Source: Actinomycetes bacterium
GTDB lineage: Bacteria; Actinomycetota; Acidimicrobiia; Acidimicrobiales; JAMCPL01
Assembly (NCBI GenBank): GCA_021816935.1
Contig: JAKAWR010000002.1
Span: 3,039-67,038, forward strand
Length of the DNA: 64,000 bases
Direction of reading: 5' to 3'
The translations under genes and the position numbers were made by a program. Below, piece after piece: positions 5,725 through 52,853 of this stretch (position 1 is the stretch's first letter; each line of letters starts with the position of its first letter). The notes below the pieces were generated by a model. The model was not told the DNA's origin and did no database searches. It saw nothing but the letters and a program-made list of their open reading frames with translations.

Positions 5725-7458
5725 TCAAAGCACCGCCTCTATGAGCGTGGGCCCCTCGGTTTTCAGGTAGCGTTCCAGAACGGTCGCGAAATCTCCGGCA
5801 TCGTCCACACGGGTCGACTCGATCCCGAACGACGACGCCAACTTTGCGAAACCAATTTCCGGCCTCCCGACACTCGTCAGCCCCTCGGCCTCCGTACGCG
5901 TAGCGTCGATCCCGAAGCGCTGCAGCTCCATCCTCAGGAGCTGGTAGGAACGGTTCGACAGGATGATGTTGGTCACGTTGAGCGACTCCCGCGCCTGGGT
6001 CCACAGCGCCTGCGGGGTGTACATCGAGCTACCGTCTGCCTCCAGGGCCACTACATGCCGGTCGGTACAGGCCAGCGCCGCTCCGACAGCCAGCGGAAGC
6101 CCCTGACCGATCGCTCCGCCGCTGAGGCAGAGCCAGTCGTGCTCCGGAGCGCCCTCAGAGGCAAGATAGGCAAAAATCCCTTCGGTCACCCCCTCGTCAA
6201 CCACGATGGCACCCTCGGGCAGCAGAGCGCCGAATACCGCCCCCAGCTTGCCCGCATCCAACGCTCCGGAAGGGAGGGACGCTTTACCGTTAACACCGGC
6301 CGCGACCGTCACCGAGGTCGCATCCGACCTGGACGAAGCTCCTCCGACGGCTTCTGCCAGGGCAGCAAGCGTCGCGCCGGCGCCATGCGGCCACACCGCC
6401 AGGTGTGTTACAGCGCAGCCGTCCGGCGCCATCGAGGACGGAATACCCTCGTAGGCGAAGAACGAAACCGGCTCGCGCACATCGACGCAGATCAGGTGAG
6501 ACAAGCCCTGTAGCTGAGCGAGGGCCAGTTCGGGCAGGTAGCCGAGGCGCTCGACGCTCGGGATGGAACCCCCTCTCTCCATGCGTGCCGGAAGCACGTC
6601 GGCAAAGACCTTGGCGCCGGTCGATGCCGCTATCCGGACCGCGTTCCTGATCCCTGTAGCCCGCAACGCCTCACCACCCAGCAGCAACGCCGCCGGGCTG
6701 CCCGACCGGAGAATCGAAGCGACCTCCTCGACCCGTTCGTCGCCAACAGACCTGCGCACGGCCTCCGAACCGGGTCGCGCGCCGGCTCTCCCTGCCATGT
6801 TCGCCGCCTCCCCGGAGGTCCGCTCTCCTGCCGCCGAGTCCCCTGCCACCGAAACCCGATCTCTTCCAACCTGACCCCACGAGACATCCGAGGGCACCAC
6901 TACGCTCACGACCCTCCCTGGTTGCATCGGCAAGAGCATCCTGGCGCCGGGCCTCTCGTCGCCGGGCTGCCCAGCGCCGTTCCCGTCCGCTCGGCCGGCA
7001 CCGCCCGCGCCCATCGTGCGGCGAACTGCCCGGACAACCGATCCTGTGATCTCTCCCGCCGATTCGATGGTCAGCACCTCCGCGGACACGCTCGAAACAA
7101 GCGACTCTATGGACTGGAGCATCGTGAGCGGAGGATCGTACTTGCGGTGATAGGTCGCCTGCTCCCCTACAAGGCAGATAACCGGACTGTTCGCACGCCT
7201 TGCGTTGTGAAGGTTCGCCAGGCCGTTGGCAAGACCAGGGCCGAGGTGAAGCAGGACTGACGCGGGCTTGCCCGCCATCCGGCCGTACCCGTCGGCCGCC
7301 CCCGTCGCTACGCCCTCGAAGAGCACGAGCACGCCCCTGATCCCCTCGACGTTGTCCAGCGCGGCAACAAGATGGAGCTCGGAGGTCCCGGGGTTGGCGA
7401 AGCACAGTTCCACCCCTTCGAAGGCCAGCGTGGACATGAGTAGCTCAGCGCCGTTCAC
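5725..7458 (-). CDS. thiamine-pyrophosphate-dependent enzyme (acetolactate synthase large subunit / benzoylformate decarboxylase-like family) with low-complexity insertions
   Basis: N-terminal TPP-pyrimidine domain NGAELLMSTLAFEGVELCFANPGTSELHLVAAL..GAADGYGRMAGKPASVLLHLGPGLANGLANLHNA. C-terminal TPP-binding segment ..ALEADGSSMYTPQALWT..NIILSNRSY. Confidence 0.8.
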   Translation of the reverse strand: MNGAELLMSTLAFEGVELCFANPGTSELHLVAALDNVEGIRGVLVLFEGVATGAADGYGRMAGKPASVLLHLGPGLANGLANLHNARRANSPVICLVGEQATYHRKYDPPLTMLQSIESLVSSVSAEVLTIESAGEITGSVVRAVRRTMGAGGAGRADGNGAGQPGDERPGARMLLPMQPGRVVSVVVPSDVSWGQVGRDRVSVAGDSAAGERTSGEAANMAGRAGARPGSEAVRRSVGDERVEEVASILRSGSPAALLLGGEALRATGIRNAVRIAASTGAKVFADVLPARMERGGSIPSVERLGYLPELALAQLQGLSHLICVDVREPVSFFAYEGIPSSMAPDGCAVTHLAVWPHGAGATLAALAEAVGGASSRSDATSVTVAAGVNGKASLPSGALDAGKLGAVFGALLPEGAIVVDEGVTEGIFAYLASEGAPEHDWLCLSGGAIGQGLPLAVGAALACTDRHVVALEADGSSMYTPQALWTQARESLNVTNIILSNRSYQLLRMELQRFGIDATRTEAEGLTSVGRPEIGFAKLASSFGIESTRVDDAGDFATVLERYLKTEGPTLIEAVL

Positions 7459-7644
7459 GCTCCCAACCTATCAGGTGCCACGCTCCTCTCAGGTGCTCCA
7501 ACAGCCAACTGCCGGCAGCTTGGACATCGAATCAACGTACCCTTGCAAATGACGTAGTTGCGAGCGATCATTAATGGAGTGGCAGGAATGTACGGCGGTG
7601 CGCTCGCAGCGACCTCGATCCCATCAGGTGAGGACGCGTAACTC

Positions 7645-9858
7645 ATGCGGCTGATGCTCTGGGTTAGCGCGGTCTTGATTATCGTCGCCGGCTCTACGGT
7701 TGTCGAAGGAATGAATCCAGACGCGACAGCTGCGGCTGGGGCCTCCATGTCTCCCACGTGGCACATCCGCGCAACATTCCCGTTCCCGCAAGGCGCCTCC
7801 GGAGATGGCGCCTTCGGGTCCGTATCATGTCCGGTACGAACGACCTGTTTCGCCGTAGGTGGCAGTGAATGGCTCTACGAGACGCGGGCGAGCGGATCAA
7901 CCTGGAACGACGTGCCGGGCCAACTGCCCTCGTCTGTATCCGGCTCCGGCGCCTCCAGTATCTCGTGCACGTCGGCGACCTTCTGCGAGGCCGTGGGATA
8001 TACCAGTGTACTCAAATTCAATGGCAGCACCTGGACCAGCCAATCCCTCCCCTCAGCATTGTTGGACCGTCCCGGGTTTGGCGGAACCGCGACAACTTAC
8101 CTCACAAGCGTGTCGTGCGTATCGGACAGCTTCTGCGAGGCCGTCGGCGACAGCATAGGATCCCCGCATCTGCCCGGCACCGGTTTCGCACTTGGATACA
8201 ACGGCCATGACTGGACACTCCAGAAGCTGCCCGCTGGGGGGGTGAGCCCGCCCTCAGGCGTATCATGTGCGGCGGAGAACTTCTGCGAGATGACGGTGGG
8301 CAGCTCTTTTCTGATAAGCCAACCGCCGATTGTCGCTCTGGTTTTCGATGGCACCAGCTGGACGGATCAGTCCGTGCCCCCGAACGTGGGAACCCTCTCG
8401 GGCGTATCGTGTACGTCAGCGAGTTCCTGCGTGGCGGTCGGGGCAAACATGTCAGGTGGGGATATCGCCGTCGCCTTCAACGGACGTACCTGGACGGATC
8501 AACCTGTGCCCCCGAGGGTGGCAACCCTCTCGGGCGTATCGTGTACGTCAGCGAGCTCCTGCGTGGCGGTCGGGGACAACGCCTCCCCGGTCGGTGCGGC
8601 AGCAACCGAGATAGTACGCGGTGTTGCGCTCGAGCTCAACGAGGGTGCCTGGATCAGTCAGGCCGTGCCACCCGGAGTAGGTCAGCTCAGCGGCGTATCG
8701 TGTACGGCCGGCGGCTTCTGCGAAGCAGTGGGGGCAGACCTCTCTGGCACATACGGAGCAGTGCTCGTCTTCGATGGAGGCGCCTGGACCGTCCAAGGGC
8801 TGCCTTCACCGTTGAGCACCCTTTCAGGCGTGTCATGCATCTCGGCAAGGTTCTGCATCGCGGTAGGTCAGAAGTTATGGGACACTGCGGGAGCCGTCCT
8901 CGGTTTCGACGGCAGGGAGTGGGCAGCTCAACACCTGCCGGCAGGTGTGTTCGGCCTCTCCAGCGTAACCTGTGTATCGGCTACCTTCTGCGAAACTGTC
9001 GGATCGACCTGGCCGGGCGAGCCGGCCGCCCTCGGCTTCAACGGCAGGATATGGGCCTTCGAGCCTCTGCCCACCGGCTCGTACTCCCTCTCGAGCGTGT
9101 CATGCACCTCGGCAAGGTTCTGCATCGCGGTAGGACCAAACTTGTCAGGCATATCAGCGGTCGCGGTCCGCTTCGACGGCCGACGCTGGGCGGGCCAACG
9201 GCTGCCTTCGGGAATCAGGTCGCTCTCCGGAGTATCATGCGTCTCGGAGCGCTTCTGCGAGGCCGTGGGCCTTGCGAACGATGGCATCCCCGAGATGGGC
9301 ATTGCCATTGCCTTTGATGGCCGGCACTGGAAGTCCCAGAACCTCACCGCATCGCACCTTGCGGGTGTATCCTGCGTCTCCACCGCCTTCTGCGAGGCCG
9401 TCAGATCCTCCTGGTCAAGTACGTTTGCAACGGTCAGGTTCAATGGCCGGCAATGGTCGGGCCAGAGCACGCTGTCCGAAGTAGTCAACTTGACCGGCGG
9501 GTCCTGTGGATCCGCTCAGCTCTGCGAAGTCATCGGGTCCGCCTTGCCCAGTACGCCTACAGCGCTCGATTATAACGGCAGGGAGTGGTCGAATCAGAGC
9601 CTGCCAATCGCAGTAACCAACCTCTCGGGCGTCTCGTGTACGCAGACGAACTTCTGCACCGCCGTGGGATCGCAAGCAGACGGCGTCCTGATCTTGGAAC
9701 TCCAGCTCCCTGCTGTCACGTCCCCCCGTTCATCTGCTTCCTCTGGTATGTTTCCTATCGCAGCGGGAGTAATCTCGTTTGCCCTTCTCGCCGGTTTCGG
9801 ACTGTTGCGTCAGAGACGATACCCGCCGGACTGGCCGCTCGCCACAGGCGAAGAGTGA
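7645..9858 (+). CDS. membrane-anchored secreted protein with 14 cysteine-pair propeller-blade-like repeats; function unknown
   Basis: ATG preceded by GGTGAGGA. N-terminal signal-like helix (MRLMLWVSAVLIIVAGS). 14 copies of GVSC-x-S-x-x-FC-E-AVG...(F/Y)(N/D)G..W..Q.LP with a period of about 44-50 aa. C-terminal TM helix plus RQRR tail. Confidence 0.8.
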   Translation: MRLMLWVSAVLIIVAGSTVVEGMNPDATAAAGASMSPTWHIRATFPFPQGASGDGAFGSVSCPVRTTCFAVGGSEWLYETRASGSTWNDVPGQLPSSVSGSGASSISCTSATFCEAVGYTSVLKFNGSTWTSQSLPSALLDRPGFGGTATTYLTSVSCVSDSFCEAVGDSIGSPHLPGTGFALGYNGHDWTLQKLPAGGVSPPSGVSCAAENFCEMTVGSSFLISQPPIVALVFDGTSWTDQSVPPNVGTLSGVSCTSASSCVAVGANMSGGDIAVAFNGRTWTDQPVPPRVATLSGVSCTSASSCVAVGDNASPVGAAATEIVRGVALELNEGAWISQAVPPGVGQLSGVSCTAGGFCEAVGADLSGTYGAVLVFDGGAWTVQGLPSPLSTLSGVSCISARFCIAVGQKLWDTAGAVLGFDGREWAAQHLPAGVFGLSSVTCVSATFCETVGSTWPGEPAALGFNGRIWAFEPLPTGSYSLSSVSCTSARFCIAVGPNLSGISAVAVRFDGRRWAGQRLPSGIRSLSGVSCVSERFCEAVGLANDGIPEMGIAIAFDGRHWKSQNLTASHLAGVSCVSTAFCEAVRSSWSSTFATVRFNGRQWSGQSTLSEVVNLTGGSCGSAQLCEVIGSALPSTPTALDYNGREWSNQSLPIAVTNLSGVSCTQTNFCTAVGSQADGVLILELQLPAVTSPRSSASSGMFPIAAGVISFALLAGFGLLRQRRYPPDWPLATGEE
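8391..8576. repeat. internal near-perfect duplication inside the repeat protein (54 bp, 1 mismatch, 132 bp apart)
   Basis: aaccctctcgggcgtatcgtgtacgtcagcgag(t/c)tcctgcgtggcggtcgggg occurs at 8391-8444 and again at 8523-8576. Confidence 0.85.
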
Positions 9859-9915
9859 TTGTAACCAGCGGCGGGGGACACCCCGATTGCCACGAACTAA
9901 AGTCAGGGGTGCAAA

Positions 9916-12336
9916 TCAGCCGCCTCCAGAGTTGTCTTCTGCCGATGTGGCGAAAGTTGCCCCTCGTGCCCTCAAACGTCGCTTCCTGACAAAGAAGTAA
10001 CCTCCCAAGAAAAGCGCGATAACGACAACGACCCCGGCCGGTAGCACTAGGGTGAGCGCACTCGGCATCACGTGACGATTGTCACCCGGTCGGGATAGCG
10101 CCAGACGCCTGGTGCCGGGCGCTGCCAGGCGGGACGAGACGGCGAGCCTACGGGTAAAGGTCAAGATAAGAACGAGCGTATTCGATCGGTTCATGCCCAC
10201 CGCCTCACAGAATGCAAGTGATGTACATGCCACCGCGTTCAAGCCACCCACTTCCATAGGGGCCTGCGATGGCAGAGACTGGCTGGTCCAAGTCCGACCG
10301 TTGAACCCTGACGCCATGGATCCCATTTCCACCGCTGACGCGTCCCCCCCCACCACCTCACAAGAGGCAGGAGCTACGCACGCAACGTCATTTCCAAAGA
10401 TGACATCTGCAGGACCTTCCTGGCGTACCCAACTGGTTCCATTGAACTCGAGATAGCTGGCCCCCCCGTCGAAAGGCACCATCGCCTCGCAGAAGGTACG
10501 TGACGTGCACGAGACGTCATTGAGGCTGCCCGTACCAGGAGGCAGCGCCTCGCCAGTCCACACTCTGCCGTTGAAGTTGAACGCAGTGCCCCCGCTCCCC
10601 GATTCAGAGTCCCCCCCGACTGCCTCGCAGAAGGTACGTGACGTGCACGAGACGTCATTGAGGCTGCCCGTACCAGGAGGCAGCGCCTCGCCAGTCCACA
10701 CTCTGCCGTTGTAATCAAGGACGAACCCACCGGAATATGAAGTATCCCCCCCGACCGCTTCGCAGAAGGCACGTGAGGCGCATGAGACTGCATTCAGGAC
10801 ACTCGTTCCCGAAGGCAGTGGCTGGCTGGTCCAGTCTGTGCCATCGAAACCAAGCGCGATCCCATTCTGTGGACTACTTTGCGAACCTTCCTGGCCGGCC
10901 GCGGTGGCACTCCCTACCGCCTCGCAGAAGCTGCTGGATATGCACGATACGTCATTCAGCCCGCCGACCCCTATGGGGAGCGATTGAACTGCCCAGGCTC
11001 TGCCGTTGAAACCGAGAGCCACGCCCAGTCCCGAGGCGGAGTCCTCCCCCACCGCATCGCAGAAGCTGCCAGATACGCACGATATGTCATTCAGCCCGCC
11101 GACCTCCGGGGGAAGAGCCTGGATCACCCAGCTGCTGCCGTTGAAGTTGAGCACGCTGCCTTCAACCTCGTTGATCTGGCCTACCGCCTCACAAAAGCTC
11201 GAGGAAACACATGACACACCGTTGAGATATCCGTTTCCCGCAGCGACGGGCACCTCCTGGCTTGCCCACGTCCTGCCATCGAAATAGATTGCACCGGTGG
11301 AGGCGGACTGCCCGGTCGATACGCTACCCCCTACTGCCTCGCAAAACGTGGGTGACGCACACGATAAGCCGTTGATTTGGCCCCTGAGCAAAGGAAGCGC
11401 CTGAACTGCCCAGGTCCTGCCGTTGAAACCGAGGGCCACGCCCAGTTCCGAGGCGGAGTCCTCCCCTACCGCCTCGCAGAAGTTCGCCGATACACACGAT
11501 ACATCCGTCAGCCCGATGACCCCAGCGGGGAGCGTCTGGTTCGTCCACGAGCTGCCGTTGAAGTTGAGAGCATCGTCTTCTCCTACGGCCTCGCAAAAGG
11601 CGGAAGACACGCATGTTACGCTACCGATACCCCCCGTCTCCGGAGGAGTTCTTTGGCTTACCCATCTGCTGCCGTTAAACTCGGCGATGCGGGAACTCGT
11701 GGACAGTCCGTTATTCCAGGCCCCTACCGCCTCACAAAACGTGGGCGATACACACGACACACTGATGGTGCCAATCCCTGCAAACAGGGCTGCTGACGAC
11801 TGGGGTTCAACGGTGTTTCCGTTGAACTCAAAGGCAAGACGACCCCAGCCGTCCCCAGCGTCAGACCCCATGAGCTCGCAGAACGTCGGTGATGCGCACG
11901 ATACGGTGTCTATGCCGTTGCTGCCGGCCGGCAAGATCGCAGTATCGTCTGCCCAGGTGGTTCCTCCGTTGCTGGTTTGGTAGAGCGAAATTCCGGCGGC
12001 AGACGGCGATGTCGTGCCAATTGCGACACATGTTAACGGGCTGGAGCACGACACGGACTTGAAATCCCCCGCGGGCACGGGGAACTCCTTCTGGAGTGAC
12101 CAAGACGATGACGTGAAATCGGAAGCGGGACTGAGCCGACCAGGCCCAGTGGCTGCTACGAAAGTAGCGGCAACTCCCAAATTGGCGGAGAGGGCAACGA
12201 CAATTATGCTCCCCATTATCTTGACCAGCCGCCGGCAACGATTCGGTACAGTCGGGCCACTGCCACCGGCGTCGCCAGCGATATCGGATCCGAGATTCCT
12301 CACATTGCCACACCTCAGTCGCGCAATTCCGAGCAC
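9916..12336 (-). CDS. paralogous membrane-anchored protein with 14 cysteine-pair blade repeats; function unknown
   Basis: Same repeat as 7645..9858 (VSCVSPTFCEAVGA, VTCVSSAFCEAVGE ...). The first blade keeps an Asp-box (SNGGTTW). C-terminal TM helix plus VRKRRLR tail. GTG start at 12336, with an alternative ATG at 12216. Confidence 0.8.
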   Translation of the reverse strand: MLGIARLRCGNVRNLGSDIAGDAGGSGPTVPNRCRRLVKIMGSIIVVALSANLGVAATFVAATGPGRLSPASDFTSSSWSLQKEFPVPAGDFKSVSCSSPLTCVAIGTTSPSAAGISLYQTSNGGTTWADDTAILPAGSNGIDTVSCASPTFCELMGSDAGDGWGRLAFEFNGNTVEPQSSAALFAGIGTISVSCVSPTFCEAVGAWNNGLSTSSRIAEFNGSRWVSQRTPPETGGIGSVTCVSSAFCEAVGEDDALNFNGSSWTNQTLPAGVIGLTDVSCVSANFCEAVGEDSASELGVALGFNGRTWAVQALPLLRGQINGLSCASPTFCEAVGGSVSTGQSASTGAIYFDGRTWASQEVPVAAGNGYLNGVSCVSSSFCEAVGQINEVEGSVLNFNGSSWVIQALPPEVGGLNDISCVSGSFCDAVGEDSASGLGVALGFNGRAWAVQSLPIGVGGLNDVSCISSSFCEAVGSATAAGQEGSQSSPQNGIALGFDGTDWTSQPLPSGTSVLNAVSCASRAFCEAVGGDTSYSGGFVLDYNGRVWTGEALPPGTGSLNDVSCTSRTFCEAVGGDSESGSGGTAFNFNGRVWTGEALPPGTGSLNDVSCTSRTFCEAMVPFDGGASYLEFNGTSWVRQEGPADVIFGNDVACVAPASCEVVGGDASAVEMGSMASGFNGRTWTSQSLPSQAPMEVGGLNAVACTSLAFCEAVGMNRSNTLVLILTFTRRLAVSSRLAAPGTRRLALSRPGDNRHVMPSALTLVLPAGVVVVIALFLGGYFFVRKRRLRARGATFATSAEDNSGGG
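10484..10710. repeat. perfect 89-bp tandem-type duplication (period 138 bp = one 46-aa blade)
   Basis: gcctcgcagaaggtacgtgacgtgcacgagacgtcattgaggctgcccgtaccaggaggcagcgcctcgccagtccacactctgccgtt occurs at 10484-10572 and 10622-10710. It encodes NGRVWTGEALPPGTGSLNDVSCTSRTFCEA twice. Confidence 0.9.
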
Positions 12337-12533
12337 GCCACGTCATGCACGTGCCGTGCTCTCCACAGCGCAATAATCATAGACCTAAACCCAGGTCACC
12401 CGCACCGGAAGCTTGAACCGGAACCATCCCTGGTTTGATGCATGCTTCCCGATTTCGACAAGGATGGCGAGATGCCGCGAAACAAACGGAAGAGGGAAAC
12501 TGAGGCGAAGCTGAACAGCTTCCATGAGGCCAT

Positions 12534-13940
12534 TCAGACGACGTTCCCTGGGGAGAGGATGGACTCCGGATCGAGCGCGGCCTTGATCTTCCGCATGATC
12601 TCGATCTGGACCGGGTCGGCCAGGTCGAGGAAGTCATGCCGCTTCGCCTTGCCTATGCCGTGCTCGGCGGACACCTCGCCGCCGAGGCTGCGGCCTGCCT
12701 CGAGTATCGCATGAATGGTGGCCAGCCTCGCCCCGGGATCCGGCTGGAAGATCGACAGGTGCACGTTGCCGTCGCCCGCGTGGCCGCACCCGGCGACAAA
12801 GGCATGGTGGGCCGTAGCCAGCGACCCGACCTTCTCCATGTACTCGGCCATCGCCGCTCTCGGGACTACCACGTCGACGATGTCGTCGGCCCCGGCGGCC
12901 TTGGCAGTCCAGTGCGCCCGGTCGCGGGCCGCGAGAAGGCCCTGACCTGCAGGCGAGGGGAGCACGTACACGTCGATCGCCCCCGCCGATGCGAGGAGAC
13001 CTGCCACCTCCGCCACGTCCTGGTCCACCGTGGTCTCACGACCTCCCTCGACGACGACCACCAGATAGGCAAGCGCCCTTTCCTTTACGCTGCCCGGGAC
13101 TCCGAGATCCACACCGGCGTCTCTGGTCGTAGCCTCCATCGTGAGCATGTCTATGTACTCGACGAGAAGCGGCCCGACACCGGAGAGCGTGACCGCCGGT
13201 ACCGCAGCGGAAGCATCGCCGAGCGATGTGAACGGCGCGAGCACGGTGGCGCGGATCGGCATCCGGGGGACGAGGCGCGCGGTGATCTCCGTCACCACCC
13301 CGAGCGTGCCCTCGGAGCCGACGAAAAGCTGCGTCAGCTCGTACCCGGACGATCGCTTGACCGTCTTTCCCCCGGTACGTATGCGCCTGCCATCCGCAAG
13401 AACCACCTCCAACCCGAGGACGTGGTTCCTCGTGACGCCGTACTTGACTGCCTGCATCCCGCCGGCATTGGTCGCCACCGTTCCACCGAGCGACGCGCTC
13501 TTCTCGCCGATCACGACCGGGTAGGCGAGACCGTGCGACGCGGTGGCCTCGTCGAGCCGGGCCAGGGTTACCCCGGGCTGAACGACCGCCACGTGGTTCG
13601 CCGTGTCCACCTCGATGATCGAGTCCATTTTCTCGAGCGACAGCACCACACCGCCCTCCGAGGCGACGCATGCCCCGGCGAGCCCGGTACCCGATCCCCT
13701 CGGTGTAACGGGCACGCGCATCCGGGAGGCCGCCTCCATGATCGCGACAACCTCGTCCGAGGTCCGGGGAAACAGCACGGCCGCGGGCAACACCGGCTCC
13801 ACACCGTACGCCTCGTCGTGCGAGTAATCGGCGAGCGCGTCCCCCGCGGTCATCACCCGCCCGTCTCCGAGTTCCGATGCGATCTCCCTTGCGAGAACGT
13901 CAGCAGTCACCATGACCTCCCTTTGTTTGCGCTCCTGCAC
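12534..13940 (-). CDS. FAD-linked oxidase (GlcD / D-lactate dehydrogenase family)
   Basis: PCMH-type FAD-binding domain (..VTPRGSGTGLAGACV..) and C-terminal FAD-oxidase domain (..GHAGDGNVHLSIF.. ..GGEVSAEHGIGKAK..). Confidence 0.85.
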   Translation of the reverse strand: MQERKQREVMVTADVLAREIASELGDGRVMTAGDALADYSHDEAYGVEPVLPAAVLFPRTSDEVVAIMEAASRMRVPVTPRGSGTGLAGACVASEGGVVLSLEKMDSIIEVDTANHVAVVQPGVTLARLDEATASHGLAYPVVIGEKSASLGGTVATNAGGMQAVKYGVTRNHVLGLEVVLADGRRIRTGGKTVKRSSGYELTQLFVGSEGTLGVVTEITARLVPRMPIRATVLAPFTSLGDASAAVPAVTLSGVGPLLVEYIDMLTMEATTRDAGVDLGVPGSVKERALAYLVVVVEGGRETTVDQDVAEVAGLLASAGAIDVYVLPSPAGQGLLAARDRAHWTAKAAGADDIVDVVVPRAAMAEYMEKVGSLATAHHAFVAGCGHAGDGNVHLSIFQPDPGARLATIHAILEAGRSLGGEVSAEHGIGKAKRHDFLDLADPVQIEIMRKIKAALDPESILSPGNVV

Positions 13941-13991: not shown

Positions 13992-15485
13992 ATGAACGAC
14001 GCCGTTCTCACATCACAGGAGCAGGACTTCCCCCGCTGGTACCAGGAGGTCATCGCCAAGGCCGAGTTGGCGGACAACGGGCCGGTCCGCGGGACCATGG
14101 TCATCCGGCCGTACGGCTACGCCATCTGGGAGCGTATCCAGGCCGAGCTGGACAGCCGGATCAAGGCTGCGGGCGTACCGAACGCCTACTTCCCGCTTTT
14201 CATACCGGAGTCCTACCTCCACCGGGAATCAGAGCACGTGGAGGGGTTCAGCCCCGAGCTTGCGGTGGTGACCCACGGGGGAGGCAAGCAGCTGGAGGAG
14301 CCGGTCGTGGTACGGCCGACCTCGGAGACCATCATCAACGCCTACTTCGCGAAATGGATCCAGAGCCACCGGGACCTGCCTCTGCTCGTGAACCAGTGGG
14401 CGAACGTCGTGCGGTGGGAGCTGCGTCCCCGGCTTTTCCTCAGGACTACGGAGTTCCTCTGGCAGGAAGGCCACACCGCCCACGCGACGCAGGACGAGGC
14501 ACGCGACTTCGCCCTGTCGATCCTGCACGACGTCTACGAGGATCTTATGGTCGAGATGATGGCCGTGCCCGTCTTCACCGGCCGCAAGACCCCACGGGAG
14601 CGCTTCCCGGGAGCGGACGAGAGCTGGACCTGCGAGGGGATGATGCGCGACGGGAAGGCGCTCCAGATGGGGACCAGCCACGAGCTCGGCCAGCGGTTTG
14701 CCGCAATGTTCGGGACAACCTTTCAGAGCGAGACCGGGGAACTGGAACACCCCTGGCAGACGTCATGGGGAGTCTCCACCCGGCTGATCGGCGCCGTGAT
14801 CATGGCCCACGGTGACGACCGCGGGCTAAGGATCCCCCCGCGGCTCGCCCCTGTCCAGGTAGTCGTGCTCGCCGCCCGCGCAGGCGAGGGGGTAAGCGAG
14901 GCTGCTTCCGCCATCGCATCCGAACTGGAGACCGCAGGGGTACGCGTGGCCCTCGACGACCGGATGGACGTCTCGTATGGGCGGCGGGTGACGGGCTGGG
15001 AGTTGAAGGGCGTTCCCCTTCGAGTGGAGTTGGGCCCGCGTGACCTGGCCGCCTCGTCGGCTATGGTCGTATCACGATTTGACGGCGCCAGGGAGCAGGT
15101 CGCCTTCACCGGCCTCGCCGCGAGTGTGGCAAGTCTTCTCGAAACCATGCAGCGCCGGATGCTCGACGAGGCGCGGGAGCGGCGGGACGCCACTGTGGAC
15201 GAGGCCGCCTCCGTTGAAGAGCTGCTTGCCGCGGCGAAAGAGGTGCAGGGCGCCAGGTTGGCCCGGCAAGTTGGCAGCCAGGCCGGCCAGGATGACAGCG
15301 AGGTAACTGCTCGAGGCAGCACGGCCCGGTTTGCGAGAGTTCCCTACGGCGCGCTCCGGCAGGCCGGTGAAGCGGAGCTGGCGGCGGTTGGGCTGAGCGT
15401 CCGGTGCCTGACGGCGGAGGACGGGGGGCTGCCCGTCGGACTGGCCGAGGGGGACTGCATCGCCTTGGTTGCCAAGGCATACTGA
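13992..15485 (+). CDS. proS: proline--tRNA ligase (archaeal/eukaryote-like class II type) with a small C-terminal insertion
   Basis: DFPRWYQEVIAKAELADNGPVRGTMVIRPYGYAIWERIQ.., ..RPTSETII.., ..NQWANVVRWE.. and ..FLWQEGHTAH.. are typical ProRS segments. Confidence 0.92.
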   Translation: MNDAVLTSQEQDFPRWYQEVIAKAELADNGPVRGTMVIRPYGYAIWERIQAELDSRIKAAGVPNAYFPLFIPESYLHRESEHVEGFSPELAVVTHGGGKQLEEPVVVRPTSETIINAYFAKWIQSHRDLPLLVNQWANVVRWELRPRLFLRTTEFLWQEGHTAHATQDEARDFALSILHDVYEDLMVEMMAVPVFTGRKTPRERFPGADESWTCEGMMRDGKALQMGTSHELGQRFAAMFGTTFQSETGELEHPWQTSWGVSTRLIGAVIMAHGDDRGLRIPPRLAPVQVVVLAARAGEGVSEAASAIASELETAGVRVALDDRMDVSYGRRVTGWELKGVPLRVELGPRDLAASSAMVVSRFDGAREQVAFTGLAASVASLLETMQRRMLDEARERRDATVDEAASVEELLAAAKEVQGARLARQVGSQAGQDDSEVTARGSTARFARVPYGALRQAGEAELAAVGLSVRCLTAEDGGLPVGLAEGDCIALVAKAY

Positions 15486-16568: not shown

Positions 16569-17354
16569 ATGGTGGCAGCCTCGCGACCCCGAGGTACCAT
16601 GCGTAAGGCCACGACCTGGATCGCCCTTGCCGTGGCGACGGCTATCATCACGCCGGTAGCCGTCGTGGCACTCGCGGGGGCGCGATCACCCGGTGGCGGG
16701 ACCGGCCCGGACAGTGGCTCGCGTAGCAACGCAGCAACGGTCACAGGCGGTATGCGAACGATGCCGGAGTCCGTCCTGCGCCACGAGACCTCGGGAGTTG
16801 CCGTGGGACAACGGATCCGGCCATTCCAGTTGCCGGCCGCCAGGAACGCAAGCGGGGGCAGGGGTAGCGCCAGTAGCGCCCGCGACGGGAGCAACGGCGG
16901 CGCTGGTGACGCCGGCGGCGCTGGTGGCGCGCACTCTGGCGGGAGTGGCACCTCCGGCCACCCGGCCGCGCCGAATCCGCCAGTCGTAGCCTCATCCCTG
17001 CTCGACGGTAGAGCCGGGATCGTGGACTTCTTCTCGGCGACCTGCATGGCCTGCCGCAGCGAGGCAACGTCTCTGTCGAAGATCTACACTCATAATCGCT
17101 ACACGATAGGGGTCGTCGCCATCGACGAAGGGGATGGGGCGGGTGCCGTAGCAAGCTTCGACAAGTCTCTCGCGATCCCCTATCCCGTCGCTCTGGACAG
17201 TGGTGGGACCGTAGCCGCTCTGTACGGCATCGTGGCCCTTCCGACGACCATCGTCGTCTCGCCCGGTGGCGCCGTCACACAGGTTCACATAGGTGCCGCC
17301 ACCTCGGCGCAGCTCTCTTCCTGGCTGCAAAGCGCATCCGCCCTCAAGCGCTGA
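16569..17354 (+). CDS. membrane-anchored thioredoxin-fold thiol:disulfide oxidoreductase (TlpA/ResA family)
   Basis: N-terminal anchor (MRKATTWIALAVATAIITPVAVVAL), CxxC motif in FFSATCMACRSE, and ..YGIVALPTTIVVSPGG.. cis-Pro loop region. Directly downstream of ccdA. An alternative start lies at 16599. Confidence 0.72.
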   Translation: MVAASRPRGTMRKATTWIALAVATAIITPVAVVALAGARSPGGGTGPDSGSRSNAATVTGGMRTMPESVLRHETSGVAVGQRIRPFQLPAARNASGGRGSASSARDGSNGGAGDAGGAGGAHSGGSGTSGHPAAPNPPVVASSLLDGRAGIVDFFSATCMACRSEATSLSKIYTHNRYTIGVVAIDEGDGAGAVASFDKSLAIPYPVALDSGGTVAALYGIVALPTTIVVSPGGAVTQVHIGAATSAQLSSWLQSASALKR

Positions 17355-38559: not shown

Positions 38560-41500
38560 CTAGCCGCCGGTCACTACCCGGCCGCTTGGAAGCTGGGTCA
38601 TCGTGGCGACGAACCAGGCCGTCGTCGGGCTCGATGCCCCCGCCCCGGCCGACTGCTGGAGGAGGTACGGTGCCGGATCGAACATCTCAGCCGGCGTGTA
38701 AGAGATGTGGACGTTCCTGAAGCCCGACGGCACGTAGCACGCCACCTCGCAACCCCACGCACTTCCGCTGTTCCATCCCTGGAAGAACTCGAAATGGCTC
38801 ATCAGCAGGCCCGCCGAGGCGAAACCGTCGTTGTATTGCTGGATGATCGAACCGACGAACGTGGCTGTGTCAAGCCCATGAACCATTCCGCTCGATTCGG
38901 TCGTGTTCGAGTACGGGAACTCGTTCCCGGACAGGAGGTTCTGGACGGCGACTGACCCGTTCTGGATCACCTGGGGTACCGACGTCGCAGCGCCGGCGCT
39001 GTCGTAAGTGCTCATCTCGACGTTCGGAAGGGAGTTGGACGCAACGATATCGGCATCGACCACTGGGTCGTACACCGCAGGGAACGAGTTGGACGGGCCA
39101 TGCACCCACGTGCTCTCCCAGGTCTGCAGGTTTCCCTCGTAGCCGGCCAGACCACTGCAGAAGCTGCTCAGATCGAGCATGGAGCAGAAATCGAGCAACG
39201 CCCCGCCGCCCAGAGTTCCGTAGGAGAAGTAGTACTCAGCCCACTGCCGGCTGCACGAATCCAGCGGGATGGGGAACGCGAACGCTATGCTGTACGGCGG
39301 TGTGCAGCTCGGAACCGGCGGAGGTGACGGCTTCTTGCTGTTGGCGCTCGGGTTGGTGGTGTAGAGGTTCATCGCCAGACTGTCCGAGGAGACGTGCCAA
39401 TCAGACGCACTGGGCGGGCTCCCGGCCCCGGCATCGAGCGGGCAGGCACCCGTGATGCCGATGATGGACTCGACCTGCGAGCCCAAGCCGCAGTAGTAGC
39501 CCTGCAGCTCGATGGTATAGATGTAGACGAAGATGTCGTAAACGCAATTCGCGAAGTTGGTGATGCTGCAGCTGAGATCGGGCGGGATGATGCTGTTCCC
39601 GGCAATGCTGGGCTCGTCAGGAGGTGTCGGGGCGGTCTTCGCAATCCCGCACCACGAAATACCGGAGCCGGTCACGGGATTGGGAATCGACGGGTTGATT
39701 GTGCAGTTGTTGTCATTCTGCCCGTTCACTACCGGATGGACGATCTCCACATTGCCCTCCGGGTAGTAGGTTCCCGAGCTGTCCTGGAAAGGCTCTCCAA
39801 GCGGGAGGTTCCCGCCTGGGGCCAGGCCGAGTGAGTCTGGGCAATTGTAGGGCACGGTCCTCCCGCCGTTCCCGGCGCAGGCATAGATGACATTACCGCT
39901 TATGTCGATATTGTTATCTGCCGCGATTGTCAAACTGCCGTTCAAAGTACCCTGTACTATCGCGTCACCCCAAGCGCAGTTATGGTGCTGGAGGGGCTCC
40001 CCCTCGTTGGACCCGGTGGAGAAGGGCAGCACGAAGCCTACGGGGAAGTTGGTGCATGACGAGTCGCCACCGGGCAGGTTGTGCACATAGATCACCCCAG
40101 CTGCCGGGAGGGGCATCGCCGTCCCGCTGTTCTCGCCGCTGCAGTTCGATGCATTGGCACCGGTCTGTCCCCACACCAACATGTCACCGCCCGCCTGCAG
40201 CTGGATAAAGGTCGGCCCGTAGAACTGGCAGCCTCCCGACTGCGCTGCAATTGCCGAGAGCTGACTGAAATCGGGCTCCGGAGGCGTCACGACGCCATTC
40301 AGCAAATGCCGGCCCGCAGTGGCGGGAGCCTTGCCGTTGCAGCCGGCAAGAAGGGTCACGTTATATGTGGTACCAAAGATCGGTCCGATGGAGAACCCTA
40401 CCGAGGGAAGGTTCGAGTAGATATACGGATACCACTTCGTGCCCGAGGGTGCCTGAAATTGCGATACTCCTGATGGGTACTTGTTGGCACTGCCGAAGGT
40501 CACGTCCGCTTTCGTCAAGTCAGGCTGACCGCAGACATAGAGTGCATCGTTCGTGTACACCTTCCCGGCAATCGTCGTCTTGAGACCGTAGTAACCGCTG
40601 CCGGCGTCGGTACCGCTGCCAGGTGGGTTGGCAGCCAGGCTCGGGTAGCCCGGAGTGTTCCCCCCCGTCGGCGTGCCGTACAGGTCATTGATGTTGCACA
40701 CGATAGGGAACGGACCGTGCGTCGGTATCGGAGCCAGAACGGCGCTAACAGCACTCAGTATCCCGTTCACGATGTCTTGGCCGATCGGGATGCCGAACAG
40801 GTTGATAGACGAAAGGCCGGCCAGGGACTTCCCGAGCATCTCCTGGACCATGCCGCTCGCCAGTATCTGGCCGATAGGGTTGGTGTCGTAGGCGTGATAG
40901 TTGCAGAAGAGCGCGCCGATCTTGATCAGACCCGTGGGACCGTTCCCGAGCAGCATGTTGATGATGGTTGACATGCTTGGAGGAAGGAGGCCGGAGCTCT
41001 TGGCAAAGTTGACTGCGTCCATCATGAGCTGGAACCACTCGCTGGACGCGTAAGTGTAGGGGCTTGTCGTCTCGTAGTTGGTGAAGAAGGCGTACGACAG
41101 AGCCGCATTCTGCAAGGCGACCTCCTCGGTCGAGTACTGCGTCCACGGAGAGAGACCGGCCCTGCCCACGACAATCAGGTACATCGTGCCCGTGGCCGGG
41201 TTCGACCCGGTCGACCCGGCCACCGCGGCCTGGGCGCCGTCAACCGTGTACGCATAGCCTTCGTTCAGGTTCGCGCTGGAGCCGCTCACAGCCGTCCATG
41301 TACCGTACATCGGCTCGGAATCGCTGCCGAGATCCGTCTTGGATATCGTGGGCAACGGCGGTGCCTGCGTTCCTCCCACATACTGGCCCAGCAATGAAGT
41401 CGCCGAGTTCACGCTGGTGCAGTAATTGGTCGGCAGGAAGAAGGCCGGGTCGCTCGCCGACGGTGACTTGCAAGTCACATCGTTGTACTTCACATAACCG

Positions 41501-41817
41501 GGGTCTTCCTGGAGGCGCGCCATATAAGCCGATACGCCGGATTCTGCAGCCACGGCGGCTGCCTTCTGGTTCTGGACCCGCAAGGTCAGAGGCACGTGCT
41601 GGCTGACGTTGGCGTACAGCACGGCAGGGATCAGTGCGAGCAGCAGCATGACCGCCATCACGGTAAGCATGGCCTGGCCGGCCGGTCCCCGCATCCGCAC
41701 GGCCGCAGCTTCCCGGCCTGCGCGACCGTCCCGGAATCTTCCCACCGCAGTTACCGGACCACCGGCCGGGTAGGTATCACGCATGTTTGGACAACTCCTT
41801 GCAGCCAAGAGCCTCAT
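38560..41817 (-). CDS. giant PilX/GspK-like minor-pilin-type protein (module A), about 1085 aa
   Basis: Hydrophobic N-terminus ..RGPAGQAMLTVMAVMLLLALIPAVLY with no Glu at +5, followed by ..NQKAAAVAAESGVSAYMARL (PilX_N-like). It is Cys-rich with beta-helix-like segments (GDAIVQGTLNGSLTIAADNNIDISGNVIYAC). The ATG at 41817 overlaps the upstream stop (TGATG); the track start is 41931. Confidence 0.72.
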   Translation of the reverse strand: MRLLAARSCPNMRDTYPAGGPVTAVGRFRDGRAGREAAAVRMRGPAGQAMLTVMAVMLLLALIPAVLYANVSQHVPLTLRVQNQKAAAVAAESGVSAYMARLQEDPGYVKYNDVTCKSPSASDPAFFLPTNYCTSVNSATSLLGQYVGGTQAPPLPTISKTDLGSDSEPMYGTWTAVSGSSANLNEGYAYTVDGAQAAVAGSTGSNPATGTMYLIVVGRAGLSPWTQYSTEEVALQNAALSYAFFTNYETTSPYTYASSEWFQLMMDAVNFAKSSGLLPPSMSTIINMLLGNGPTGLIKIGALFCNYHAYDTNPIGQILASGMVQEMLGKSLAGLSSINLFGIPIGQDIVNGILSAVSAVLAPIPTHGPFPIVCNINDLYGTPTGGNTPGYPSLAANPPGSGTDAGSGYYGLKTTIAGKVYTNDALYVCGQPDLTKADVTFGSANKYPSGVSQFQAPSGTKWYPYIYSNLPSVGFSIGPIFGTTYNVTLLAGCNGKAPATAGRHLLNGVVTPPEPDFSQLSAIAAQSGGCQFYGPTFIQLQAGGDMLVWGQTGANASNCSGENSGTAMPLPAAGVIYVHNLPGGDSSCTNFPVGFVLPFSTGSNEGEPLQHHNCAWGDAIVQGTLNGSLTIAADNNIDISGNVIYACAGNGGRTVPYNCPDSLGLAPGGNLPLGEPFQDSSGTYYPEGNVEIVHPVVNGQNDNNCTINPSIPNPVTGSGISWCGIAKTAPTPPDEPSIAGNSIIPPDLSCSITNFANCVYDIFVYIYTIELQGYYCGLGSQVESIIGITGACPLDAGAGSPPSASDWHVSSDSLAMNLYTTNPSANSKKPSPPPVPSCTPPYSIAFAFPIPLDSCSRQWAEYYFSYGTLGGGALLDFCSMLDLSSFCSGLAGYEGNLQTWESTWVHGPSNSFPAVYDPVVDADIVASNSLPNVEMSTYDSAGAATSVPQVIQNGSVAVQNLLSGNEFPYSNTTESSGMVHGLDTATFVGSIIQQYNDGFASAGLLMSHFEFFQGWNSGSAWGCEVACYVPSGFRNVHISYTPAEMFDPAPYLLQQSAGAGASSPTTAWFVATMTQLPSGRVVTGG

Positions 41818-46249: not shown

Positions 46250-46569
46250 TCCGGCCTCCTTCGTCGCGCCGACACTTCCCGGCGTCCACTTCCCGCCGTC
46301 GACGCCCGGGGATCCGGGCTCTGCATGTCACACCGGACCGGCGGGCTTTGCGGATGTCGGGCTCGGCGGGCTCTCGAATTCATTGTCCGCTCCGCTGCGC
46401 CGAACGGCAAGCGGGAAAGCACCCGTTCAATGGGCGAAAATCCTCCCACGTGGAAATGCTGACGGATCCTGCTCGAGCGGTGAACTCCACTACGCATCGC
46501 GTACGGGCCGCGTGTAGGCCACGTACGGACTGCCCCTTCCCGGCGGCTGGAATGCGCTAGACTTCGTAC

Positions 46570-47346: not shown

Positions 47347-47398
47347 GAGCCGCCCGATTCGCTCCCGACGGCAGTTACGGACTCAGGTGGACTCAGGT

Positions 47399-48238: not shown

Positions 48239-48257
48239 ACGATCAGCTCGAGCCGGC

Positions 48258-51500: not shown

Positions 51501-51576
51501 CCGGCACTCACCTCCAACTCAATCGTTTCCCGGGAAATCGCATTCTGCACCAACGCTTCATCCATGGTGCCGTCCA

Positions 51577-52596: not shown

Positions 52597-52632
52597 ACTG
52601 ACATTATCGGGGCTTGCCCTCCGTGTGTCTAG

Positions 52633-52689: not shown

Positions 52690-52853
52690 TAGACTTACTT
52701 ACGTCACTCCCAGCATAATCGTTATGTGTGGGTTAATTCGATTTGCGGTCACGACCACAGACGCCGTGTCGCGTTGTCGCTTCCGGCAACCGCGGGTGGC
52801 CCCGGTGAACGTGAACGTAGGCTGCACCCGCTCGGCACGGAGCGCCCGTCGGC

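What the first reader, a model, noticed from the sequence alone, without database searches (positions are those of the whole stretch)
7645..12336. Convergent pair of membrane-anchored proteins, each with 14 cysteine-pair blades derived from a BNR/Asp-box propeller
Both ORFs (737 and 806 aa) have an N-terminal signal, then 14 units of G-V-S-C-x-S-x-x-F-C-E-A-V-G ...(F/Y)(N/D)G..W..Q.LP with a period of about 44-50 aa, then a C-terminal TM helix with an Arg/Lys tail. In the first blade of each protein the second half is still a recognisable Asp-box (SNGGTTW, ASGSTW). In later blades it has degenerated to (F)(N/D)G..W. Fourteen blades suggests two 7-bladed propellers. The invariant Cys-x7-Cys would put one disulfide in every blade. 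I cannot name a family with this signature. The two genes face each other with 57 nt between their stops.
Basis: partly seen in the sequence, partly recalled or inferred. Interest (0 to 1): 0.7.

Follow-up and report, generated by a model that had tools for sequence, protein, structure and literature searches.

The report
Cysteine-stapled double beta-propeller membrane proteins
Two facing genes in an uncultured soil actinobacterium each encode a membrane-tethered surface protein built from two seven-bladed beta-propellers with a conserved cysteine pair in every blade; they belong to a very large, unnamed and unstudied branch of the known Asp-box (sialidase/Ycf48/GH74-type) propeller superfamily, and their function is still unknown.

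Summary
ORF A (7645-9858 +, 737 aa) and ORF B (9916-12336 -, 806 aa maximal, 795 aa as called) are convergent with 57 nt between their stops. Each has an N-terminal hydrophobic signal, 14 Cys-pair repeats, and a C-terminal TM helix with a basic tail. One correction: the pair is Cys-x5-Cys, not Cys-x7-Cys.

AlphaFold2 models of both proteins (pLDDT 81-82) are all-beta with four strands per unit. Foldseek's best PDB matches are tandem 7+7 propellers, above all GH74 xyloglucanases, and Ycf48 matches a single propeller.

The (F/W)(N/D)GxxW motif sits in the strand 3-4 hairpin, as an Asp-box does, and is one residue shorter. A sister subfamily has the same Cys pair with canonical Asp-boxes and passes the Pfam BNR-type models.

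The family is very large (57,758 50%-identity clusters at E<=1e-3). It is almost confined to uncultured Actinomycetota and matches no Pfam or NCBIfam model.

Nothing conserved suggests an active site, and no neighbouring gene is conserved. The most variable part is the strand 2-3 loop. The most likely role is a disulfide-stabilised, non-catalytic binding platform on the cell surface. This is a new variant of a known kind, of moderate interest.

The parts
7645..9858 (+). Gene A, 737 aa: exported, C-terminally membrane-anchored 14-blade (7+7) Cys-pair propeller protein
   Evidence: ORF. It is identical to public protein P0005. AF2 model pLDDT 81.9. Foldseek gives tandem-propeller hits.
7645..7713 (+). 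A: N-terminal hydrophobic segment (aa 1-23, MRLMLWVSAVLIIVAGSTVVEGM), either a signal peptide or a signal anchor
   Evidence: Kyte-Doolittle peak of 2.09. 233 of 263 family members have a hydrophobic N-terminus. Cleavage was not tested.
7759..7782 (+). A: N-terminal velcro strand (aa 39-46, WHIRATFP), supplying strand 4 of blade 14
   Evidence: Strand E39-46 in the model lies before blade 1, and unit 14 has only three strands. W39 is at least 90% conserved. 1+3 closure is the norm in Asp-box propellers (PMC2716378).
7813..9705 (+). A: blades 1-14 (aa 57-687). Each has VSC-x5-C-(E)AVG on strands 1-2, and 13 of the 14 also have (F/Y)(N/D)GxxW..Q.LP on strands 3-4
   Evidence: All 14 Cys pairs lie on consecutive strands that flank a 2-3-residue turn.
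9757..9855 (+). A: C-terminal TM helix (aa 705-721, nt 9757-9807) and cytoplasmic basic tail RQRRYPPDWPLATGEE (nt 9808-9855)
   Evidence: KD peak of 2.13, coordinates. No sorting-signal model matches.
9859..9915 (.). 57-nt spacer between the convergent stop codons
   Evidence: The scan found no terminator-like hairpin here.
9916..12336 (-). Gene B: maximal ORF 806 aa, called as 795 aa from the GTG at 12303. It is a paralogue of A (36% identity) with the same architecture.
   Evidence: AF2 model pLDDT 81.3, pTM 0.69. The top 19 Foldseek hits are GH74.
12145..12228 (-). B: N-terminal hydrophobic segment (ORF aa 37-64), preceded by a basic stretch (RCRRLVK)
   Evidence: KD peak of 2.19.
12079..12108 (-). 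B: N-terminal velcro strand (ORF aa 77-86, SSWSLQKEFP)
   Evidence: Model strand E37-46, which is ORF aa 77-86.
10156..12072 (-). B: blades 1-14 (ORF aa 89-727). Blade 1 carries the only regular Asp-box, TSNGGTTW (nt 11953-11976).
10484..10711 (-). B: two 100% identical 90-nt copies (10484-10573 and 10622-10711), 138 nt apart, spanning parts of units B10-B12. One 138-nt period (46 aa, one blade unit; unit B11 is aa 559-604, nt 10525-10662) is absent from the NCBI MAG contig and a Logan contig, and present in two other assemblies.
9919..10056 (-). B: C-terminal TM helix (aa 761-783, nt 9988-10056) and basic tail RKRRLRARGATFATSAEDNSGGG (nt 9919-9987)
   Evidence: KD peak of 2.61, coordinates.

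Best explanation
Each gene encodes a type-I-like envelope protein. An N-terminal signal takes the chain across the cytoplasmic membrane. About 650 residues then fold outside the cell into two seven-bladed beta-propellers made from one uninterrupted run of 14 blades. This is the GH74-like 'type 3' Asp-box arrangement.

The N-terminal strand completes blade 14 (1+3 velcro closure), so both chain ends leave from the same blade. A C-terminal TM helix with an Arg/Lys tail holds that blade close to the membrane.

Every blade is braced in two ways. A Cys-x5-Cys pair spans the strand 1-2 hairpin and is inferred to form a disulfide. A shortened Asp-box, (F/W)(N/D)GxxW, sits in the strand 3-4 hairpin.

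All conserved residues belong to this repeated scaffold. The strand 2-3 loops, which by general propeller geometry lie on the usual ligand-binding face, are the most variable part in sequence and length. The proteins are therefore most likely non-catalytic, disulfide-stabilised binding platforms for a glycan or protein ligand at the cell surface, and not enzymes.

Shown: the ORFs, the repeats, Cys invariance, the predicted fold, the Asp-box relationship, family size and taxonomy, and the absence of conserved catalytic residues or gene partners. Inferred: the disulfides, the topology, the binding function and the ligand.
For: Architecture.

Fold: both models are all-beta with four strands per unit. 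The Foldseek hits are tandem 7+7 propellers, with GH74 at TM 0.48-0.55 for B and PorZ at 0.54. Single-propeller hits are Ycf48 at TMt 0.68 and a viral propeller at TMt 0.73.

Velcro closure: there is one strand before blade 1 and only three strands in unit 14. 13 of 14 hairpin motifs is the n-1 maximum (PMC2716378).

Asp-box descent.

Cys pairs: invariant, and always on consecutive strands across a 2-3-residue turn. 233 of 263 members have an export signal.

Non-enzymatic: the only D/E/H/K/R/Y positions conserved at 70% or more are periodic Glu residues and one Tyr. No Asp is conserved.

Variable loop: blade-HMM columns 17-24 have 3.0-4.0 bits of entropy.

Fusion partners elsewhere are Ig-like surface modules such as TIG, fn3, He_PIG and Big.

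Precedent: CyRPA is a sialidase-fold propeller with one buried disulfide in each of five blades and a purely binding role (PMC5349852).
Against: There is no experimental or expression data for any member, and no ligand is known.

The S-S geometry could not be measured. In the DSSP register of most blades the two Cys appear offset by one position rather than directly opposite, so a bulge or a 3-residue turn would be needed for a disulfide.

Absence of a conserved catalytic residue was judged from a repeat-rich alignment of 110 sequences and was not mapped onto the structure. Subfamily-specific active sites cannot be excluded.

The inter-propeller angle is uncertain (pTM 0.65-0.69). The N-terminal segment could be an uncleaved anchor.

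The C-terminal TM anchor is seen only in these two proteins among 263 sampled. Their role may therefore differ from that of the soluble majority.
Confidence: 0.6

Rival explanations
1. They are glycoside hydrolases of the GH74 or sialidase type. The cleft between the two propellers would hold an active site that cleaves a polysaccharide at the cell surface.
For: GH74 xyloglucanases are the best structural matches for both proteins, with the same ~730-aa 7+7 Asp-box architecture. Most characterised Asp-box propellers are glycosidases (PMC2716378).
Against: The family profile finds no PDB sequence, GH74 included, at E<=1. No Asp is conserved at 70% or more anywhere in the 110-sequence alignment, whereas GH74 uses two catalytic Asp (own knowledge); the only conserved acidic residues are Glu that recur in nearly every blade. 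There are no CBMs or carbohydrate-utilisation genes nearby.
Confidence: 0.1
2. They are Ycf48-like assembly or stability factors. They would dock onto the extracytoplasmic loops of a membrane-protein complex during its biogenesis, as Ycf48 does on D1 in photosystem II.
For: The sister subfamily is annotated 'photosystem II stability/assembly factor-like' and hits PF14870. Ycf48 aligns with one propeller at TMt 0.68. Membrane tethering resembles lipidated Ycf48 (title of PMC8038367).
Against: A and B do not themselves hit PF14870. They have 14 blades, not 7. The host is a non-photosynthetic Acidimicrobiales-like actinobacterium. No membrane-complex genes are conserved nearby. Many paralogues per genome and hypervariable loops fit a dedicated assembly factor poorly.
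Confidence: 0.1
3. The cysteine pairs are not structural disulfides. They would form rings of thiols around the propeller axes that bind metal or are redox-active, making the proteins extracytoplasmic metal or redox sensors or carriers.
For: There are 28 invariant Cys at equivalent positions at the turn after the first strand of each blade, which in propellers generally is the innermost strand next to the axis. A membrane-anchored thioredoxin-fold CxxC protein lies 4 kb away.
Against: Two Cys on adjacent strands across a tight turn in an exported protein is the classic disulfide setting. No His, Asp or other ligand residues co-vary with them. C-x5-C is not a known metal motif. CyRPA shows intra-blade disulfides in this fold.
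Confidence: 0.05
4. The ORFs are not real genes. They would be assembly artefacts of a repetitive region or decaying pseudogenes.
For: Assemblies disagree by one 138-nt unit in gene B.
Against: Both ORFs are intact and are recovered identically in several independent assemblies. More than 17,000 clusters match at E<=1e-30 with conserved length and 14 units. The DNA repeats are only 60-80% identical apart from one pair.
Confidence: 0.01

Closest known systems
GH74 xyloglucanases / OXG-RCBH (PDB 2cn3, 5fkq, 1sqj, 6p2o and others): 'type 3' tandem Asp-box propellers
   Same: About 730 aa. Two seven-bladed propellers are formed from one uninterrupted run of 14 blades, with the structural motif in the strand 3-4 hairpin. 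They are secreted. They are the best Foldseek matches for both A and B (PMC2716378).
   Different: There is no detectable sequence similarity, with 12-13% identity in the structural alignments. GH74 has only 4+5 regular Asp-boxes, whereas A and B have 13 hairpin motifs of the Asp-box type, nearly all of the short form. GH74 has no Cys-x5-Cys per blade. No catalytic Asp pair is conserved here. A and B are membrane-anchored.
Actinobacterial 'photosystem II stability/assembly factor-like' (COG4447-type, Pfam PSII_BNR/BNR/Sortilin-Vps10-positive) Cys-pair propellers, e.g. P0085
   Same: This is the true sister group. It has the same GVSC-x5-C-VAVG first half-blade, a median of 14 Cys pairs, the same phyla, 33% identity to A and colinearity over 14 blades.
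   Different: The sister group keeps canonical S/T-x-D-G-G-x-T-W Asp-boxes (median 11 per protein) and is therefore recognised by Pfam. The window's subfamily has a one-residue-shorter W/F-N/D-G-x-x-W (median 12 short, 0 regular) and is invisible to Pfam and NCBIfam. Neither group has been characterised experimentally (searches found no study).
Ycf48/HCF136 (PDB 5ojr, PF14870)
   Same: It is a seven-bladed Asp-box-type propeller tethered to the outer face of a membrane. It superposes on one propeller at TMt 0.68.
   Different: It is a single propeller of ~300 aa with no Cys pairs. It is specific to oxygenic phototrophs and binds D1. A and B do not reach the PF14870 threshold.
Plasmodium CyRPA (PMC5349852)
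   Same: It is a sialidase-fold propeller that has lost all catalytic residues. It is stabilised by one buried intra-blade disulfide in each of five blades and acts purely as a binding scaffold.
   Different: It is a six-bladed single propeller from a eukaryote with a single Asp-box and no sequence relationship. Its disulfide positions are not shown to be equivalent. This is an analogy, not membership.
PorZ (PDB 5m11) and BT4663 sensor domain (PDB 4a2m)
   Same: Both are bacterial envelope proteins with tandem seven-bladed propellers that bind glycans (own knowledge: PorZ binds A-LPS and BT4663 binds heparin). PorZ matches B at TM 0.54.
   Different: They come from a different phylum and different repeat families, without Cys pairs. 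They carry additional signalling or CTD domains that are absent here.

Membership tests
Asp-box (BNR) beta-propeller superfamily | Propeller built of four-stranded antiparallel blades | tested here: met
   The AF2 models of A and B have 56-58 strands, four per repeat unit. All Foldseek hits are propellers.
Asp-box (BNR) beta-propeller superfamily | Conserved structural motif located in the hairpin between strands 3 and 4 of the blades | tested here: met
   The Trp of (N/D)GxxW opens the fourth strand in 12 of 12 scored blades of each model. The position is as described in PMC2716378.
Asp-box (BNR) beta-propeller superfamily | Regular consensus S/t-x-D/n-x-G-x-T/s-W/f/y in several blades | tested here: not met
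   A has 0 and B has 1 (TSNGGTTW). The other blades carry a form one residue shorter, with the D/N-to-W spacing of the s-Asp-box but without its Ser/Thr.
Asp-box (BNR) beta-propeller superfamily | Significant match to Pfam BNR-type models (PF02012, PF13088, PF14870, PF15902) | tested here: not met
   There is no hit for A or B at E<=1. The criterion is met only transitively: A versus P0085 gives E 5e-60 over 14 blades, and P0085 passes three of these models.
Asp-box (BNR) beta-propeller superfamily | 1+3 velcro closure by the N-terminal strand, hence at most n-1 hairpin motifs | tested here: met
   There is one strand before blade 1, three strands in unit 14, and 13 of 14 motifs (PMC2716378).
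GH74 glycoside hydrolases | Tandem 7+7 propeller fold | tested here: met
   GH74 gives the top Foldseek hits: E 2e-17 and TM 0.48-0.55 for B, E 1e-14 and TM ~0.41 for A.
GH74 glycoside hydrolases | Sequence membership (detectable similarity to GH74 catalytic domains) | tested here: not met
   Neither protein A nor the 110-sequence family profile matches any GH74 chain in the PDB at E<=1.
GH74 glycoside hydrolases | Two conserved catalytic Asp residues in the inter-propeller cleft | tested here: not met
   No Asp is conserved at 70% or more in alignment A1.
Ycf48/HCF136 (PF14870 PSII_BNR) | Single seven-bladed propeller of ~300-340 aa scoring above the PF14870 gathering threshold | tested here: not met
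   A and B have 14 blades and no PF14870 hit. There is structural similarity only, at TMt 0.68.
Ycf48/HCF136 (PF14870 PSII_BNR) | Occurs in oxygenic phototrophs and binds photosystem II D1 | not testable with these tools
   The host is Acidimicrobiales-like by ProRS similarity. No photosystem genes were noticed in the window, and binding cannot be tested.
DUF2510 (PF10708) | Score above the gathering threshold (24 bits) | tested here: not met
   A scores 14.5 bits and B 15.4 bits. Only ~15 residues, the WNGxxW part, match profile positions 17-30. Some homologues pass only by summing repeats.
Sortase / exosortase-type C-terminal sorting signals | Signature motif (LPXTG, PEP, GlyGly and the like) just before the TM helix and basic tail | tested here: not met
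   NCBIfam, the annotation library in which such sorting-signal models would be expected (own knowledge, not checked here), gives no hit at E<=1. No LPXTG or LAXTG lies before the helix. It reads as a plain TM anchor.
   Model coordinates are not returned. The indirect evidence is Cys invariance, export, and both Cys lying on adjacent strands across a 2-3-residue turn in 28 of 28 pairs.

The most novel reading that the evidence does not exclude
This Pfam-invisible family is a diversifying surface-recognition repertoire of uncultured soil and peat Actinomycetota. A rigid 14-blade scaffold, stapled by disulfides and short Asp-boxes, would display hypervariable strand 2-3 loops. It would be multiplied into many paralogues per genome, and blade number would change by unequal recombination between near-identical blade-coding repeats, as the 13-versus-14-unit difference in gene B suggests. 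The window's two membrane-anchored paralogues would be the receptor form of an otherwise secreted family, possibly acting as a heteromeric pair.
Probability: 0.15. Interest if true: 0.7.

Novelty: new variant of a known kind. Interest (0 to 1): 0.4.

Why it matters
It identifies a very large protein family that current domain libraries do not recognise: 57,758 50%-identity clusters at E<=1e-3 and 17,535 at E<=1e-30. The family places about 14 probable disulfides in a GH74-like double propeller and is concentrated in abundant but uncultured soil and peat Actinomycetota.

For propeller evolution it is a clean case of an Asp-box propeller carrying the maximum possible complement (n-1) of a shortened motif together with a second, cysteine-based brace in every blade. 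It also shows signs of ongoing blade-level duplication.

Practically, a family or blade HMM would annotate tens of thousands of 'hypothetical proteins'. The scaffold is a candidate stable binding platform. The function remains unknown, which limits the significance for now.

Tried and rejected
- Pfam, NCBIfam, PHROGs and PADLOC scans of A and B gave only sub-threshold fragments: DUF2510, DUF2844 and an Rz-like spanin. These are artefacts of summing a short repeat.
- PDB sequence searches with A, with the 110-sequence profile and with P0085 found nothing relevant.
I used a degenerate DNA pattern instead.
- Tandem Repeats Finder found no array, because the blade repeats are only 60-80% identical at DNA level.
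- My first estimate that 23 of 110 homologues had a C-terminal TM tail came from too lax a regex. A hydropathy test corrected it to A and B only, out of 263.
- The search for conserved neighbours failed. Contexts differ, and clustering ORFs from 79 loci gave at best an ECF sigma factor in 3 loci. There is no operon-based functional inference.
- No terminator-like hairpin was found in the 57-nt spacer, and promoter and terminator counts across 7300-12700 did not exceed the shuffled expectation.
- Literature searches found no study of this actinobacterial Cys-pair group. One query was rejected for syntax.
- Exact-sequence cluster look-ups gave no names or taxonomy.
- There are no Rfam or tRNA features in the window.
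- I considered and rejected an LPXTG or LAXTG sortase signal: 'LPAVTS' and 'LATG' do not fit, and the second lies after the helix.
- I also considered that the N-G-T/S in WNGT/SW is a glycosylation sequon. That was not pursued, and it is probably a coincidence of the motif.
Full report
**1. The observation**

The window holds a convergent gene pair. ORF A is 7645-9858 (+), 737 aa. ORF B is 9916-12336 (-), 806 aa as the maximal ORF. Their stop codons are 57 nt apart.

A contains 28 cysteines and B contains 30. In each protein they form exactly 14 pairs, and B's two extra Cys lie in the N-terminal leader. The pairs are spaced 39-54 aa apart, with a median of 45.

Thirteen units continue with (F/Y)(N/D)GxxW..Q.(L/V)P. 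The 14th unit stops after its third strand, and a W..Q..(F)P segment precedes unit 1 (A: PTWHIRATFP; B: SSWSLQKEFP).

Both proteins start with a hydrophobic segment. Both end with a ~20-residue hydrophobic helix followed by an Arg/Lys-rich tail. The motif occurs nowhere else in the 64 kb. A and B are 36% identical over their full length, E 1e-116.

**2. Source**

Window 1-22303 is 100% identical to contig DAHVIJ010000042.1 of MAG GCA_027321985.1, except for one 138-nt unit in gene B. The prolyl-tRNA synthetase next door is at most 67% identical to anything else, and its named relatives are mostly Acidimicrobiales MAGs. The host is therefore a deep-branching uncultured actinobacterium. Flanking genes are housekeeping: MeaB, a TPP enzyme, a GlcD-like FAD oxidase and ProRS.

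**3. The family**

A search with B returned at least 777 homologues. Most are 700-750 aa and unnamed or called 'hypothetical'.

In an alignment of A with 109 of them (33-39% identity), the Cys of 13 of the 14 pairs are invariant in all 110 sequences and the 14th pair is kept in 107. The consensus second half-blade is LAExWNGTSWxxQxxPxP. 94 of the 110 have exactly 14 pairs. With a blade HMM, 3,627 of 3,631 blades in 263 proteins keep both Cys, and 165 of the 263 proteins have exactly 14 pairs.

An exhaustive profile search of 1.84 billion cluster representatives found 57,758 at E<=1e-3, 39,174 at E<=1e-10 and 17,535 at E<=1e-30.

A strict DNA pattern for VSCxSxxFCEAVG in 185,579 species genomes hit 85 stretches. 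Almost all are Actinomycetota MAGs: Acidimicrobiales, Streptosporangiaceae, Solirubrobacterales and unclassified bins. The only cultured organism is Aciditerrimonas ferrireducens. That probably explains why no curated model exists. Pfam, NCBIfam, PHROGs, PADLOC and PDB sequence searches give only sub-threshold fragments.

**4. Fold**

AlphaFold2 with these alignments gave confident models. A has mean pLDDT 81.9 and pTM 0.65. B has pLDDT 81.3 and pTM 0.69. Both are all-beta with four strands per unit.

Foldseek against the PDB returned tandem seven-bladed propellers.
- For A: GH74 xyloglucanases (E 1e-14), Aip1 (TM 0.46-0.52), PorZ, BT4663 and Gemin5.
- For B: the first 19 hits are all GH74 (E 2e-17 to 1.5e-14, TM 0.48-0.55), followed by PorZ (0.54), Aip1 and the single propeller Ycf48 (5ojr_D, TMt 0.68).
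- A 315-aa viral propeller superposes on half of A with TMt 0.73.

For B, a query-normalised TM above ~0.42 cannot come from one propeller alone. The model is therefore a GH74-like two-propeller body and not a 14-bladed ring.

The strand lists show one strand ahead of blade 1 and only three in unit 14. This is a 1+3 velcro closure in which the N-terminal strand completes the last blade, as in nearly all Asp-box propellers (PMC2716378). Both chain ends therefore emerge from blade 14, which the short linker and C-terminal helix place next to the membrane (inference).

**5. Relationship to the Asp-box**

In the models the Trp of (N/D)GxxW opens strand 4, so the motif occupies the strand 3-4 hairpin, which is the defining Asp-box position (PMC2716378).

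B's blade 1 is a regular Asp-box (TSNGGTTW). A's blade 1 (TRASGSTW) keeps the length but lacks Asp/Asn. [quoted passage not shown] P0085 has the same GVSC-x5-C-VAVG half-blade and a canonical T-x-D-G-G-x-T-W in every blade. It passes the Pfam thresholds for PSII_BNR, Sortilin-Vps10 and BNR_2. It aligns with A colinearly over all 14 blades at 33% identity, E 5e-60, and FNG-xxW repeatedly aligns to TDGGxTW across a one-residue gap.

A search with P0085 found 4,009 relatives, which JGI names 'photosystem II stability/assembly factor-like uncharacterized protein'. Both subfamilies have a median of 14 Cys pairs. The sister group has a median of 11 regular and 0 short motifs. The window's group has 0 regular and 12 short.

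Thirteen motifs in 14 blades is the n-1 maximum allowed by one velcro closure, whereas GH74 has only 4+5 (PMC2716378).

**6. The cysteines**

In both models all 28 pairs lie on the first and second strands of a blade, on either side of a 2-3-residue turn. Three things make one intra-blade disulfide per blade the most likely reading:
- near-absolute invariance of the Cys;
- export signals in 233 of 263 members;
- the known capacity of Actinobacteria for extracytoplasmic disulfide formation (own knowledge).

I could not measure S-S distances because coordinates are not returned. The DSSP register in most blades puts the two Cys one position off from directly opposite, so this step remains inferred.

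CyRPA is a precedent. It is a catalytically dead sialidase-fold propeller with one buried disulfide in each of five blades (PMC5349852).

**7. Function**

Every residue conserved at 70% or more belongs to the repeated scaffold. The only conserved charged residues are Glu that recur in almost every blade (CEAVG, LAExW). No Asp is conserved. This argues against a GH74-type or sialidase-type active site.

The most variable segment is the strand 2-3 loop, at 3.0-4.0 bits and with variable length. In propellers generally that loop lies on the usual ligand-binding face, opposite the Asp-box hairpins (own knowledge).

Fusion partners in longer relatives are Ig-like surface modules such as IPT/TIG, fn3, He_PIG and Big domains. 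Gene neighbourhoods are not conserved. Paralogues often sit side by side (L088, L090; 100 family ORFs in 79 loci), but the best non-family neighbour occurs in only 3 of 79 loci.

I therefore favour a disulfide-stabilised, non-catalytic binding platform at the cell surface (confidence ~0.6). Hydrolase, Ycf48-like assembly factor and thiol/metal roles are the less likely rivals.

The C-terminal TM anchor is peculiar to A and B among the 263 proteins sampled. Most relatives end right after unit 14 and are presumably secreted.

**8. The 13-versus-14 question in gene B**

The window has two 100% identical 90-nt copies, 138 nt apart (10484-10573 and 10622-10711). The NCBI MAG contig and a Logan contig lack one 138-nt unit, giving 749 aa and 13 pairs. 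An ENA k141 contig (80,679 nt) and a 267-kb contig carry the 795-aa, 14-unit form. Fourteen is the family norm, so the shorter form is either an assembly collapse or a real in-frame deletion allele. Read-level data are needed to decide.

**9. Verdict**

The proteins are a previously unnamed and very large subfamily of the Asp-box propeller superfamily with GH74-like 7+7 architecture. Three features distinguish them: a Cys-x5-Cys brace in every blade, a shortened Asp-box in 13 of 14 blades, and, in this window, C-terminal membrane anchoring.

This is a new variant of a known kind. The function is unknown and the interest is moderate (0.4).

Noticed in passing
window 10484-10711 (gene B, units B10-B12): Two 100% identical 90-nt copies lie 138 nt apart. 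Public assemblies of the same organism differ by exactly this 138-nt (46-aa, one blade) unit. The NCBI MAG and a Logan contig have 13 blades, while an ENA k141 contig and a 267-kb contig have 14. This is either an assembly collapse or a real blade copy-number polymorphism.
   Followed up: partly
window 8333-8448 vs 8465-8580 (gene A, blades 5 and 6): A 116-nt direct repeat is 82% identical overall, with a 90-nt core at 91%. As a result blades A05 and A06 share an identical LSGVSCTSASSCVAVG. This points to recent blade duplication or gene conversion within gene A.
   Followed up: partly
window 38560-56756: There are four giant ORFs of 1123, 1127 and 1080 aa on the minus strand and 1300 aa on the plus strand. 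Two of them (42866-46249 and 52854-56756) begin with a prepilin-type N-methylation motif followed by CarboxypepD_reg and IPT/TIG domains. The other two have no Pfam hit. They look like giant pilin-like surface proteins.
   Followed up: partly
window 16569-17354 (+): This gene encodes a membrane-anchored thioredoxin-fold protein (AhpC-TSA/Redoxin) with a CMAC motif, resembling TlpA/ResA. It is a possible extracytoplasmic thiol-disulfide oxidoreductase about 4 kb from the Cys-rich pair. No link between them has been shown.
   Followed up: partly
P0002 aa ~800-1209 and P0085 aa ~950-1389 (P0002's contig JAMCPD010000006.1 is held as L038/L044): Longer homologues carry, after an IPT/TIG domain, three ~130-aa C-terminal repeats (…YRICDTR…LTVWP…PTxSNLNF…VVDVxGYY) that match no Pfam model.
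   Followed up: no
family consensus WNG(T/S)SW; in the window e.g. FNGSTW, FNGSSW, FNGTSW in several blades of A and B: The short Asp-box often contains an N-G-S/T tripeptide, which is formally an N-x-S/T sequon. This is probably coincidental.
   Followed up: no
window 13992-15485 (+), ProRS: No prolyl-tRNA synthetase among the 120 best-scoring hits listed from the 5.8-billion-cluster database is more than 67% identical, apart from the protein itself. The host lineage is therefore poorly sampled.
   Followed up: partly
L088 4071-6392 and 8001-10322; L090 5788-7989 and 8001-10097: In unrelated genomes family members also occur as neighbouring paralogue pairs, there on the same strand. The pairing may be a recurrent feature, from tandem duplication or from a functional pair.
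   Followed up: partly
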